Below are positions 44,101 to 47,100 of a stretch of DNA of 64,000 bases, in pieces. Position numbers: made by a program. The number at the start of each line of letters is the position of its first letter. The first letter of the stretch is position 1. Where the stretch lies: assembly GCF_056746865.1 (NCBI RefSeq), contig NZ_CM163382.1; one strand, given 5' to 3'.

Positions 44101-47100
44101 CAGAAGTCAACGTTACATGGTCGGCATCTGTCGTAGCGCTTCCCCCTTCCGAATAGAGCCACGGAATGGTTCCCTGGAAAATATTGGTTTCGCCGCTGTC
44201 GACCCAGGCGCTTTCTTCCGCCAGCGCCACAGGTGCCACACAATAACCTGCCAGTGCCAGCGCCAATGCGATCCGGGTCAGACCGCGTCTTTTATCCTGC
44301 TTCATTGATGCTCTCCTTAATGAACCTTCAGCGACTGGCCGACTGGCCTTACGCCAATCTTATTTTTTGGTATACAGCACGCGTAAACCGTATCCCTGCA
44401 AGCCATCTCCCGCTTGTGCGCCATAGGTTTGCGCTGCTTCGCGGTTAGTGGCCGGAATCACAATGTCCTCATTGGAAGTGTTCGCCTGTGCACCCACTTC
44501 ACCATTGATGCTCTTGCCGGTAAATTCCCACTTGTAGTCGTACTGCGCCATCTCTTCGTCAGTCAGTTTTTCGACCTGCTGGAAGACACCGTCTTTATTG
44601 CTGTCACGCCACAAAACAAATCGATAAGTGTTGTTGAGCGGCAGCGGTTCTTTATCTTTACCTATCAGGTTGCTGGGTTTAGCTGCCCCCACACGATAGA
44701 TAAATGCATTTAGCCCACCAATTTCTGCCCCGAGGAAAGTGACATCCACATAGTTACTGTCGTCGTAGGGCGCAGCTTTTGCTTTCCAGCGATAGGTGCC
44801 GGGTAAGGTACTGGAGAGGGTGACAGTGCCCTTTTCTTTATCTTGTTTAGCGATAAAAACGCAGGGGTTGTCGGTCGAGCAAGGCTTGTTGGTTAACGTC
44901 ACTCGTTTGTCCTGCGCGTCGTAAAGCTGCGGCGTGAGGTTATCTTCCGGCAGCGCATCGCCATTGCGGTCGGTGTTATCGCCAAAGCTGTCGGTTACAT
45001 CGAGATCCATCACCACACCATCAACGCCATCTGCCTGAGCGCTGGCTTCGTGGCTGTGGTTGTTCTCTTCCGGCACGTTCGCGATGTTATTAACAATCAA
45101 CTCTATTTTACGGTCCTGCTGAACGGTGATTTCCACCACGCCAGAGTTCTGTCGGTTGCCCTTTTCATCTTCCAGTGCCAGACGTACTCGCCAGGTATTG
45201 AGTTTTTCTTGTTCGGCTTTGTCAGAGCTGTACTGCCAGGCGGGCAGCACCAGGTTCCAGTGGTTATTGTTCCCCTCTGTCAGGGTATTCTCTTTGATAA
45301 CCGGCATAACCAACGTGCGGGCAGCATTGTTTTTCGCCTGCCATGACGCAGCGACAATTTTGTAGTGGTGGTTGATAAGCGCGTTAATGGTCCATTTACA
45401 TTTTTCCAGCCCGACGGCCGCTTCGGGAGTGTCCTTAATGACGCACTCAGGGTGCTCGTTGGTGGCATCCGCTTTTAACCACAGGGTGACATCAAGCGGA
45501 TCTTTTTCTTTGTATTCCAGAACAATAAAGTTATTACGCTCAACAAAATCATGACGACTGCCCATCAACGAGTGAGCCGCTTTCACTTTATCGCTATCCA
45601 ATTGATCTTTTAGCGGAACGCCGAACTGATAATTAAGAGTGGCATTAATGCTGACATCGCTGTTATCTCCGGTCCCCGCTTTATAGTCCGCCCCAACGGT
45701 TAGTAATGGCACCGGTTGATAATTCAGTCCAAGTGTTACCGCGTAGGGATCTTTCTCCAAATTATCCGTACCAAAAAGGGCGACTTCATCGCCGTAATAT
45801 TGCTCGAAGACAACTTTGCCCCCCAGTTGCGGATAAGAAGGTAACCAGGCTTCGGCACGAATATCCCAGCCGCGCGCAGGGCGTTCTTCATAAAAGTCGA
45901 AATCTTCAGAGTCTTTCCAGTCAGAAAGCGGATGATAATAGTTGCCAGAGAATTTTAAATAATCAGTCCACGCTTCGCCGCCTAAACCTAAACGGCGATG
46001 TCCTCGGGTAAAATCATAATCATAAAATATATTTCCGCCCAATAACCATTCATCAAAATTATATCTTACCCCAAGACCAATATTCCCGATTGTACGATCT
46101 TCTTTTCGCTGCGCAGAAAATTGACTGAAATAAACAGTGGTTTGATTATCGTACCAGGGAACAAAATAATCGATGGAGCTGCCATCCAGATCGCCGTCCT
46201 TGCCAATGGAGAGGTTCGAACGGACCTTACCGTAGGGAGAAAGTGTGTCTTCAATATAAGATTGTGCGGTTGAGGTGATTTGACTTTGCAGATAGCTTCT
46301 GGCCTGAGATTCCAGCGCCTCAGGGGTCAAGTTTTCAAACCCTTGCGTGGCGGAGTTGATGACGTAATCGGCTCCGCGCTCTTTCAGCGATTTACCCTTG
46401 TTGGTTTGTTCATCCTGCTGTGCTGTCTGGCTACCTAAATCAGGTAACGATTCGTTTTGCTTAACATTTATCTCTGGTGCCGCGAAAGCAGCACCAGAGA
46501 TAAATGTTAGAATAATACAGCGTTTCCATCGCAGCATGCACTTTCCCTGTGACAATGATACAGTCAAAAATAAGCTTTAATATTGTATCCCTGATTATTC
46601 AGAAAGGCATATCATAAAGAATAAATATATTCTTAATTATTTAAATTAGTGATTTCACTCAATTACATTAGTTATTCCACTAATAACAGATTATTTTACC
46701 ATTCACATATTAAATATAAATGATAAAACAATATATTCACATGATATTAAGCAATAACAAATTCAACGCGTTTTTTAGATATTAAACCGTGCCCATGTTG
46801 GCAGAAATAATCCACAGCACCACAAGCTTTTAACACTTGTAACGGCTGATGACACTCAGGGCAAAGTGCCTGGACGGTAAAGTCTTTGTCGCAAGTTGCA
46901 CAGTGGGCAGTCTCGCCATTGCGTTCGAGAGGGGTTTTGCAGGTTGGACAGTTGAGTGCCATAAATACTCCTCGCGTGTTATTCGGTTTCCCTCTCCGTG
47001 TGGAAAGGGAAACCAGATAAGTGATTACTTACTTTTCTTGATATGCTTCATCAGGCGCTTACGTTTACGCATCTGGGTTGGCGTCAGGGTGTTACGCTTG

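What the first reader, a model, noticed from the sequence alone, without database searches (positions are those of the whole stretch)
46568..46746. Very AT-rich upstream region for the sinH operon
The ~180 bp between the yfgJ stop and the sinH start is highly AT-rich with multiple A/T tracts, unlike the flanking core DNA. This is typical of horizontally acquired promoters silenced by nucleoid proteins such as H-NS, and would place island expression under xenogeneic silencing control.
Basis: partly seen in the sequence, partly recalled or inferred. Interest (0 to 1): 0.3.

Follow-up and report, generated by a model that had tools for sequence, protein, structure and literature searches.

The report
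AT-rich regulatory region of sinH
The very AT-rich gap upstream of the E. coli adhesin gene sinH is real and is the gene's control region, containing a promoter and a short DNA motif conserved across five bacterial genera, so it is an ordinary tightly regulated (probably H-NS-silenced) promoter, not just a scar of foreign DNA.

Summary
Window 46568-46746 is 20% G+C, the lowest 179-bp stretch in the 64 kb. The real yfgJ-sinH gap is 46538-46746 (209 bp, 23% G+C), because sinH starts at ATG 46537, not at the mechanical TTG at 46567.

- For it: the E. coli orthologue (iatB) is silent in culture and is induced about 15-fold by LeuO, a classical H-NS antagonist (Goh 2019).
- Against it: I found no H-NS occupancy data, and the published transposon screen recovered no hns insertions.
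- The island's coding DNA has core-like G+C (50.9% against 51.3%), so it carries no compositional mark of foreign origin.
- The yfgJ / AT-rich gap / sinH layout recurs in Escherichia, Salmonella, Citrobacter, Pseudocitrobacter and Superficieibacter.

Inside the gap there is specific, conserved architecture:
- A 17-19 bp block, TTTAGGAATnnATTTAG (window copy 46621-46637, degenerate).
- A -10-like hexamer 33-34 nt downstream of it (TACAAT, 46582-46587), with no -35. This looks like an activator-dependent promoter.
- The left half of the block matches the published RcsB half-site. The full RcsB box is not met.

Also found: a hairpin after the yfgJ stop codon, and a 22-bp stem-loop with compensatory changes inside the sinH signal-peptide codons.

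Verdict: an ordinary kind of element with some new detail. Interest is low to moderate.

The parts
46538..46746 (-). Complete yfgJ-sinH intergenic region (209 bp, 23.4% G+C). It is the regulatory region of sinH.
   Evidence: sinH start confirmed by RefSeq annotation of a 99.8%-identical strain.
46685..46737 (-). AU-rich hairpin (19-23 bp) starting 10 nt after the yfgJ stop codon. Probably the yfgJ transcript 3' end or a weak terminator.
   Evidence: RNA fold z = -3.5. A stem is kept, with sequence changes, in all six E. coli alleles; it is shorter and different in one. Other genera carry different hairpins at the same place. It did not meet the G+C-rich terminator scan.
46641..46681 (.). Two 19-bp direct repeats 22 bp apart (minus strand AGTGrAAThACTAATnTAA). 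They include an IHF-like AATCACTAATTTA at 46642-46654. Function unknown.
   Evidence: (family D1). Conserved among ExPEC-type alleles.
46621..46637 (-). Window copy (ATTAAGAATATATTTAT) of the cross-genus conserved block TTTAGGAATnnATTTAG. Putative operator centred about -54. Positions 46628-46635 (TAAGAATA) match the RcsB half-site TmrGAAww.
   Evidence: The best shared 16-mer gave 173/192 matches against 143.7 +/- 2.0 in shuffles, z = 14.6. The information profile is sharp. With 1 mismatch or fewer it occurs once per locus, always upstream of sinH. The window copy alone (3 mismatches) is not above chance. RcsB consensus taken from PMC7913699 and PMC3950696.
46582..46587 (-). Predicted -10 hexamer TACAAT. 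There is no recognisable -35. Predicted transcription start near 46575, giving a 5' UTR of about 37 nt.
   Evidence: A TA[ACT]A[AC]T hexamer lies 33-34 nt after the block in 12 of 16 lineages and is usually the only one within 70 nt. Coordinates. The start site was not mapped.
46544..46548 (-). Shine-Dalgarno AGGGA, 6 nt upstream of the ATG.
   Evidence: AGGGA/AGGA is conserved before the start codon in other genera.
46535..46537 (-). sinH start codon (ATG).
   Evidence: RefSeq annotation. Signal peptide and cross-genus N-terminal alignment.
46462..46509 (-). 22-bp stem with a 4-nt loop in the sinH mRNA, codons 10-25 (signal-peptide core and cleavage site).
   Evidence: repeat I1. On 14 sequences, 84% of cells pair against 34-47% when the partner is slid, and 8 pairs change on both sides (0/500 shuffles reach this). 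Compensatory non-synonymous changes in E. albertii.
44360..46537 (-). sinH (iatB), an intimin-like inverse autotransporter of 725 aa.
43328..44305 (-). sinI-family autotransporter-associated protein, 54 bp downstream of sinH.
35165..43207 (-). Giant adhesin gene with BIg21/InvE_AD repeats, broken by an in-frame stop at 40493-40495 (pseudogene). Last gene of the 11.6-kb island 35106-46746.
   Evidence: Pfam families of orthologues.

Best explanation
The 209-bp gap is a two-part regulatory region.

The distal half (about 46685-46737) forms a hairpin that probably ends the der-yfgJ transcript.

The proximal half is the sinH-sinI-(adhesin) promoter. It has a good -10 (TACAAT, 46582-46587) and no -35. 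It also has a 17-19 bp operator-like block, conserved across genera, centred about -54 (46621-46637). All of this sits in 77% A+T, TpA-rich DNA.

The promoter is off by default for two reasons: it lacks a -35 and needs an activator, and its AT-rich DNA is most likely coated by H-NS/StpA. It can be switched on by factors that displace or override that repression. LeuO has been shown experimentally to do this for the orthologue iatB. A specific factor binding the conserved block is inferred; it may be an RcsB-containing LuxR-family heteromer.

Shown: composition, conservation, motif and spacing, silence in culture and the LeuO response (literature).
Inferred: H-NS occupancy, the transcription start site, and the identity of the factor.
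For: - Composition.
- Gene order and start codon.
- Island limits: K-12 has xseA and yfgJ overlapping by 4 bp.
- The same layout and a 23-29% G+C gap occur in 5 genera.
- Conserved block: z = 14.6 against shuffles, a sharp information peak flanked by unconserved DNA, unique to the sinH upstream region in 15 loci.
- A -10-like hexamer lies at +33/34 in 12 of 16 lineages.
- The proximal gap diverges 7.6% against 22.8% at sinH third codon positions.
- iatB is silent in LB and M9 at 28-42 C, and its mRNA rises 15-fold with LeuO (PMC6714894).
- LeuO is described as an H-NS co-regulator and antagonist (PMC6698644).
- RcsB half-site: the variation seen at block positions 3 and 4 (A/C, G/A) stays within the published degeneracy TN(G/A)GA / rc(wwTTCykA).
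- The GAD box offers a precedent for an RcsB-heterodimer site centred at -63 (PMC2887963).
Against: - No H-NS ChIP or hns-mutant result for sinH could be found.
- The iatB::lacZ transposon screen found no hns insertions.
- The H-NS high-affinity motif is not enriched.
- The transcription start is unmapped. The only promoter reported by the consensus scan lies elsewhere (46693-46720), inside the distal hairpin.
- The window's own copy of the block is degenerate: 3 mismatches, including loss of the near-invariant last G. On its own it is not above chance in 64 kb.
- The full RcsB homodimer box and the RcsAB box are not met.
- Spacing from block to -10 is 22 nt in two lineages and 29 nt in E. albertii. 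In one divergent E. coli variant the block lies 160 nt from the ATG, with no matching -10.
Confidence: 0.6

Rival explanations
1. One reading: the AT-richness is simply the compositional signature of recently acquired foreign DNA. H-NS recognises it as non-self, and no specific regulatory architecture is involved.
For: - The gap is extremely AT-rich.
- The island is absent from K-12 and present in only 1699 of 5426 complete E. coli genomes.
- SinH alleles are phylogenetically incongruent. For example, an E. coli variant groups with Superficieibacter at about 71% identity and shares its 22-nt spacing, and one Salmonella allele at 78% is closer to the E. coli query than the main Salmonella allele at 73%. 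This suggests exchange between genera.
- LeuO response.
Against: - Island genes have core-like G+C and GC3 (50.9% against 51.3%), so there is no foreign signature.
- The AT-rich gap, its length, a 17-19 bp block and a -10 at fixed spacing are maintained across five genera, while the surrounding sequence is unalignable.
- The promoter-proximal half is under purifying selection.
Confidence: 0.12
2. The gap is a specific activator-dependent promoter and H-NS plays no significant role. AT-richness serves promoter mechanics (easy melting, UP-like or bent DNA, IHF binding). Silence in culture only reflects absence of the activating signal, and LeuO acts as a direct activator.
For: - No hns insertions among iatB::lacZ up-mutants.
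- No enrichment of the H-NS nucleation motif.
- Conserved block plus -10 without a -35.
- IHF-like site and phased 22-bp repeats just upstream.
- BglJ-RcsB is reported to activate some promoters as a classical activator, independently of H-NS (PMC3950696).
Against: - Tracts of 200 bp at 77% A+T are H-NS-bound almost as a rule in E. coli and Salmonella (established knowledge, not tested here).
- LeuO's known targets are overwhelmingly H-NS-repressed.
- hns mutants may have been missed in the screen because of sickness or StpA back-up.
Confidence: 0.2
3. The gap mainly serves the upstream operon, as the terminator and 3'-end region of der-yfgJ. sinH expression would depend on read-through, or on Rho-dependent termination within the AT-rich DNA.
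For: - A hairpin lies directly after the yfgJ stop in E. coli alleles and, with other sequences, in other genera.
- No canonical intrinsic terminator is detected, so read-through is conceivable.
Against: - The hairpin covers only the distal quarter to half of the gap.
- The conserved block and -10 lie downstream of it, and their position tracks sinH. They persist in an E. coli variant that lacks yfgJ.
- der is essential and constitutively expressed, yet iatB is silent.
Confidence: 0.06

Closest known systems
H-NS-repressed, LeuO-activated promoters of E. coli and Salmonella (bgl, cas, leuO, cryptic fimbriae)
   Same: A strongly AT-rich upstream region. Silent in laboratory culture. Transcript induced by LeuO overexpression (PMC6714894; PMC6698644). 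The product is a surface adhesin.
   Different: H-NS binding and hns derepression have not been shown for sinH. No hns insertions came out of the published screen. The LeuO palindromic core site could not be tested because I did not have its sequence. The associated genes are not AT-rich.
fdeC, another E. coli inverse-autotransporter gene. Reported as 'regulated by H-NS and temperature' (Easton et al. 2014; title only, seen in reference lists).
   Same: Same protein family (intimin-like inverse autotransporter). Cryptic in culture. Nucleoid-protein control reported.
   Different: A different locus and promoter. I could not read the paper, so no feature-by-feature comparison was possible.
GAD box of gadA/gadBC, bound by an RcsB/GadE heterodimer (PMC2887963)
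   Same: An asymmetric site of about 20 bp whose left part resembles an RcsB half-site (TTAGGA...). It lies upstream of the -35 position (centred at -63, against about -54 here). The promoter is also H-NS-repressed.
   Different: GadE is absent from Salmonella, yet the sinH block is conserved there. The spacing between TTAGGA and ATTTA differs by 3 nt (my recollection of the GAD-box sequence). No binding data exist for sinH.
RcsB box, RcsAB box and BglJ-RcsB motif
   Same: Block positions 2-9 (TAGGAATw, TAAGAATA, TCGGAATT) fit TN(G/A)GA and the reverse complement of wwTTCykA / tatTCctA.
   Different: The second half (ATTTAG) does not fit TC(T/C)NA or TaAGaa. The partner half faces the promoter, which is the minority orientation for BglJ-RcsB.
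CS54 island of Salmonella Typhimurium (shdA-ratB-ratA-sinI-sinH between xseA and yfgJ)
   Same: Same chromosomal site, same gene order yfgJ-sinH-sinI-giant adhesin, and the same conserved block and -10 upstream of sinH. STM2517 = sinH.
   Different: The Salmonella gap is longer (345 bp) and less AT-rich overall (34% G+C). The Salmonella allele lacks the signal-peptide hairpin.

Membership tests
H-NS (xenogeneically) silenced promoter | A+T content far above the genome average over at least 100-200 bp | tested here: met
   23% G+C over 209 bp against 51% for the window. Lowest stretch in 64 kb.
H-NS (xenogeneically) silenced promoter | H-NS occupancy in vivo (ChIP) | not testable with these tools
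   No data set was reachable: Lucchini 2006 supplements are not held, the strain 042 RNA-seq table is truncated before this locus, and the LeuO ChIP supplements are not held.
H-NS (xenogeneically) silenced promoter | Derepression in hns (or hns stpA) mutants | not testable with these tools
   Only indirect evidence: the Tn5 screen of iatB::lacZ yielded 12 up-mutants, all leuO-activating and none in hns (PMC6714894).
H-NS (xenogeneically) silenced promoter | Counter-silencing by a known H-NS antagonist | tested here: inconclusive
   Literature only: LeuO overexpression raises iatB mRNA about 15-fold. Whether this works through H-NS was not examined.
H-NS (xenogeneically) silenced promoter | The associated genes carry a foreign (AT-rich) composition | tested here: not met
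   Island 50.9% G+C against 51.3% for the rest. GC3 of sinH, sinI and the adhesin is 0.52-0.58, like der and bamB.
H-NS (xenogeneically) silenced promoter | High-affinity nucleation motif tCG(t/a)T(a/t)AATT (consensus recalled from memory) | tested here: not met
   1 hit with 2 mismatches or fewer against 2.8 +/- 1.6 expected in shuffles.
RcsB homodimer box | TN(G/A)GA-N4-TC(T/C)NA (PMC7913699) | tested here: not met
   The left half fits (TAGGA, TAAGA, TCGGA). The right half is ATTTA, not TC(T/C)NA, in all lineages.
RcsB heteromer site (RcsAB, BglJ-RcsB or GadE-RcsB type) | One half-site matching the RcsB half (rc of wwTTCykA / tatTCctA = TmrGAAww), with the other half different | tested here: met
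   10 of 15 representative lineages fit all 8 positions. Variation at positions 3 and 4 stays within m and r. A chance match in one AT-rich gap is about 0.4 by my estimate, so this is suggestive only.
RcsB heteromer site (RcsAB, BglJ-RcsB or GadE-RcsB type) | RcsB-dependent binding or regulation | not testable with these tools
   sinH is not mentioned in the Salmonella RcsB regulon paper's main text.
LeuO regulon | LeuO-dependent change in transcript level | tested here: inconclusive
   Published for the orthologue in strain SMS-3-5, not for this strain. A direct versus an indirect effect is not resolved.
LeuO regulon | Palindromic 7-5-7 LeuO core site with T-N11-A (PMC6698644) | not tested
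   The consensus sequence is only in figures and supplements that are not held.
Activator-dependent sigma-70 promoter | -10 hexamer at a conserved position, weak or absent -35, activator site upstream | tested here: met
   TA[ACT]A[AC]T lies at +33/34 from the block in 12 of 16 lineages. There is no conserved -35.
Activator-dependent sigma-70 promoter | Mapped transcription start site | not testable with these tools
   No start-site data were reachable.
Intrinsic terminator (for yfgJ) | G+C-rich stem followed by a U tract | tested here: not met
   No hit in the scan. An AU-rich hairpin without a clean U tract exists.
Known RNA families (Rfam) | Covariance-model match at the gathering score | tested here: not met
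   Only sub-threshold chance hits in 44000-49000.

The most novel reading that the evidence does not exclude
sinH is controlled at two levels, neither described before.
1. A 17-19 bp operator conserved across genera (TTTAGGAATnnATTTAG, centred about -54). It would be bound by an RcsB-containing heteromer or another conserved factor, linking adhesin expression to envelope signalling.
2. A 22-bp mRNA stem-loop in the signal-peptide codons. It would gate translation or trigger RNase III cleavage.
The second level would explain why LeuO-induced iatB mRNA gave no detectable protein (Goh 2019). The ExPEC-type allele in this window carries a weakened operator.
Probability: 0.15. Interest if true: 0.55.

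Novelty: new member of a known kind. Interest (0 to 1): 0.33.

Why it matters
SinH is an ExPEC-associated adhesin and a current vaccine candidate (PMC9937491), yet nobody knows when it is expressed. It is silent in vitro.

This work makes the question directly testable. It locates the likely core promoter, a conserved operator and a conserved mRNA stem-loop. These give concrete targets for reporter mutagenesis, DNA pull-down and ChIP.

It also gives a cautionary example. An AT-rich island promoter need not indicate recent foreign origin. Here the island's genes have the host's composition, and the AT-rich control region has been maintained by selection across genera.

Tried and rejected
**Literature on H-NS at sinH**
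- Searches for sinH with H-NS, LeuO or CS54, and for the locus tags, gave nothing direct. A search for iatB/sivH returned only unrelated acronyms.
- Lucchini 2006 supplements are not held.
- The strain 042 hns RNA-seq table is truncated before 2.9 Mb.
- Supplements of the Salmonella LeuO ChIP-seq and the E. coli LeuO papers are not held.
- Kroger 2012 (start sites), Kingsley 2003 (CS54) and Easton 2014 (fdeC) are not held.

**Elements looked for in the gap**
- Rfam scan: no family.
- Small ORFs: only 21-24 aa mechanical ORFs with no support.
- The consensus scan gives a single promoter hit (46693-46720). It lies inside the post-yfgJ hairpin, is not conserved (altered in ST131), and the hit count is below the shuffle expectation, so I rejected it as the main promoter.
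- TTGACT at 46562-46567 was considered as a -35 and rejected. No -10 follows it, and it lies in the predicted 5' UTR.

**Candidate factors for the block**
- The full RcsB and RcsAB boxes were tested and not met.
- These were compared from memory only and rejected or left open for poor fit: Lrp, PhoP, PmrA (9-10 of 12), OmpR, CpxR, SlyA, Fis, ArgR, marbox, the H-NS site, and a CsrA or upstream-ORF reading of the block as RNA.

**Not run**
- A metagenome scan for the motif, because chance hits in AT-rich genomes would swamp it.
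Full report
**1. What is there**

The window is E. coli DNA of an ExPEC type. The query region is 99.8% identical to strain 118UI, and 1699 of 5426 complete E. coli genomes carry it.

The genes on the minus strand are, in order:
- der;
- yfgJ (46747-46962);
- a gap;
- sinH (44360-46537);
- sinI (43328-44305);
- a giant adhesin gene (35165-43207) with an in-frame stop.

xseA (33729-35105) converges on this block from the left.

In K-12 the 3' ends of xseA and yfgJ overlap by 4 bp. Homology between the window and K-12 resumes exactly at the yfgJ stop codon. So 35106-46746 is an 11.6-kb island, and the AT-rich gap is its right-hand end.

**2. The observation**

Window 46568-46746 is 20.1% G+C. 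It is the lowest 179-bp stretch in the 64 kb, and the next minima are 30-32%. TpA steps are three times as frequent as in the window overall, and there are 11 A/T tracts of 4 bases or more.

The real start is ATG 46535-46537. This is supported by:
- RefSeq annotation of a near-identical strain;
- a canonical signal peptide and a Shine-Dalgarno AGGGA;
- conservation of the N-terminus, but not of the extension, in other genera.

The gap is therefore 209 bp (46538-46746) at 23.4% G+C.

**3. Is it 'foreign' DNA?**

Not by composition. The island is 50.9% G+C against 51.3% for the rest of the window, and GC3 of sinH, sinI and the adhesin (0.52-0.58) equals that of der and bamB. The other gaps in the island are short (42-120 bp) with normal G+C.

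The arrangement yfgJ / AT-rich gap / sinH / sinI / adhesin occurs at the same locus in many taxa. The gap is 200-230 bp at 23-29% G+C in most of them. In the main Salmonella allele it is 345 bp at 34% G+C. The taxa are:
- E. coli lineages, E. whittamii, E. albertii and cryptic Escherichia clades;
- Salmonella enterica;
- Citrobacter;
- Pseudocitrobacter;
- Superficieibacter.

Allele relationships are incongruent with taxonomy, so exchange between genera is likely. But the AT-rich control region is an old, maintained feature. Among six E. coli alleles, divergence is as follows:

| Region | Mean pairwise difference |
|---|---|
| Promoter-proximal half of the gap | 7.6% |
| Distal half of the gap | 14.9% |
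| sinH third codon positions | 22.8% |

**4. Anatomy of the gap**

Between genera the gap is unalignable, except for one block: (T)TTTAGGAATnnATTTAG(G).
- The best shared 16-mer scores 173/192 against 143.7 +/- 2.0 in dinucleotide shuffles, z = 14.6.
- The information profile rises sharply over 19 positions and is flat on either side.
- With 1 mismatch or fewer, the block occurs exactly once in each of 15 loci, always upstream of sinH on the sense strand.

The window copy is ATTAAGAATATATTTAT (46621-46637). It has 3 mismatches, including loss of the near-invariant final G, and by itself is not above chance in 64 kb. Its significance comes from conservation of position.

A -10-like hexamer (TACAAT, TATAAT, TAAAAT or TAAACT) begins 33-34 nt after the block in 12 of 16 lineages. 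It is usually the only such hexamer within 70 nt. The offset is 22 nt in two lineages, one helical turn less. E. albertii has TAGAAT at 29 nt.

Nothing resembling a -35 is conserved. In the window the -10 is 46582-46587, the predicted start is near 46575, and the 5' UTR is about 37 nt. This is the layout of an activator-dependent sigma-70 promoter with its operator centred near -54.

Upstream of the block lie two 19-bp direct repeats 22 bp apart, with an IHF-like sequence (46641-46681). Directly after the yfgJ stop lies an AU-rich hairpin (46685-46737) that probably ends the yfgJ transcript. The only promoter reported by the consensus scan (46693-46720) sits inside that hairpin and is not conserved.

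**5. Mechanism**

Published work on the orthologue (iatB in strain SMS-3-5; PMC6714894) shows:
- no expression in LB or M9 at 28-42 C;
- a chromosomal iatB::lacZ screen of about 30,000 Tn5 mutants gave 12 up-mutants, all driving leuO;
- LeuO overexpression raised iatB mRNA about 15-fold, but SinH protein stayed undetectable.

LeuO is a well-known co-regulator and antagonist of H-NS (PMC6698644 and PMC3950696). Together with 77% A+T, this makes H-NS/StpA silencing the most likely default state. It remains an inference: I found no occupancy or hns-mutant data, no hns insertion came out of the screen, and the H-NS nucleation motif is not enriched.

The conserved block argues for a specific factor as well. 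Its left half fits the published RcsB half-site, with observed variants TAGGAATw, TAAGAATA and TCGGAATT. That half-site is TN(G/A)GA (PMC7913699) or the reverse complement of wwTTCykA / tatTCctA (PMC3950696). The variation seen between lineages stays within the degenerate positions.

The right half (ATTTAG) does not fit TC(T/C)NA or TaAGaa, so the site is not an RcsB homodimer or a canonical RcsAB box. The nearest architectural precedent is the GAD box: an RcsB/GadE heterodimer site centred at -63 on an H-NS-repressed promoter (PMC2887963). I rate RcsB involvement at about 0.25.

**6. A second layer**

Codons 10-25 of sinH form a perfect 22-bp stem with a 4-nt loop (46462-46509).
- On 14 sequences from Escherichia, Citrobacter, Pseudocitrobacter and one Salmonella allele, 84% of cells pair, against 34-47% when the partner is slid.
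- Eight pairs change on both sides; 0 of 500 shuffles reach this.
- E. albertii carries two compensatory pair changes that alter amino acids.
- G-U pairs argue for RNA on the sense strand.
- The main Salmonella and C. freundii alleles lack the stem.

The function is unknown. Candidates are a translational gate or an RNase III target, either of which would fit the mRNA-without-protein result of Goh et al.

**7. Verdict**

Its rationale is wrong, because the AT-richness does not mark recent foreign origin.

This is a new, better-resolved member of a familiar class, the cryptic AT-rich adhesin promoters. The conserved operator-like block and the coding-region stem-loop do not appear in any of the papers I could search. 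Interest is low to moderate.

Noticed in passing
window 46462-46509 (minus strand): A perfect 22-bp stem with a 4-nt loop inside the sinH signal-peptide codons. It shows compensatory changes across Escherichia, Citrobacter and Pseudocitrobacter, including non-synonymous ones. It is absent from the main Salmonella allele.
   Followed up: partly
window 46747-46962 (yfgJ) compared with L002:6600-6815: yfgJ is mosaic relative to K-12. The C-terminal 38 aa are almost identical and the N-terminal 33 aa are strongly diverged (48 of 72 aligned columns identical, counting the stop). Roughly 3,700 of the 5,426 E. coli genomes, presumably sinH-negative, gave no megablast hit to this yfgJ allele.
   Followed up: partly
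window 46685-46737 (minus strand): An AU-rich 19-23 bp hairpin directly after the yfgJ stop codon. A stem is kept, with sequence changes, in E. coli alleles. Other genera have unrelated hairpins at the same place. Probably the yfgJ 3' end.
   Followed up: partly
window 46641-46681: Two 19-bp direct repeats 22 bp apart (AGTGrAAThACTAATnTAA on the minus strand). They include an IHF-like AATCACTAATTTA, just upstream of the conserved block.
   Followed up: no
window 35165-43207 (minus strand): The giant BIg21/InvE_AD-repeat adhesin gene of the island is broken by an in-frame stop at 40493-40495. RefSeq annotates the near-identical strain 118UI copy as a pseudogene.
   Followed up: partly
L019:4001-6958 (E. 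coli E69): sinH is interrupted by an insertion of about 770 bp between residues 221 and 219 of the query alignment. It is possibly an IS element.
   Followed up: no
L013, L028 (a 'Collinsella' MAG) and L025 ('Rhizobium wenxiniae'): Short contigs in non-enterobacterial assemblies carry sinH at 94-99% identity to E. coli. This is most likely contamination of public assemblies.
   Followed up: no
L035:1845-2500 (E. coli variant with 71%-identity SinH): yfgJ is missing between der and sinH. The last 200 bp before sinH are still 19-22% G+C and keep a copy of the block (AATAAGAATAAATTTAC), but 160 nt from the ATG.
   Followed up: partly
L018, L033 and L034 (Citrobacter): In Citrobacter an MFS transporter gene and a GFO/IDH-family oxidoreductase gene lie upstream of yfgJ, at the same locus where the other genera have der next to yfgJ. 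yfgJ stays next to sinH.
   Followed up: no
Salmonella LT2 STM2517 (literature): A sigma-54 ChIP-chip binding site (TGGTACGGATCTTGCCAT) is listed for sinH in LT2 (PMC3844500; its position relative to the CDS was not verified). It is unrelated to the upstream gap.
   Followed up: no
window 22312-22490 and 23012-23190: The next most AT-rich stretches of the window (30-32% G+C). Not examined.
   Followed up: no
window 35106-35164: The 59-bp gap between the convergent xseA and the adhesin gene is 69.5% G+C. It is possibly a bidirectional terminator.
   Followed up: no
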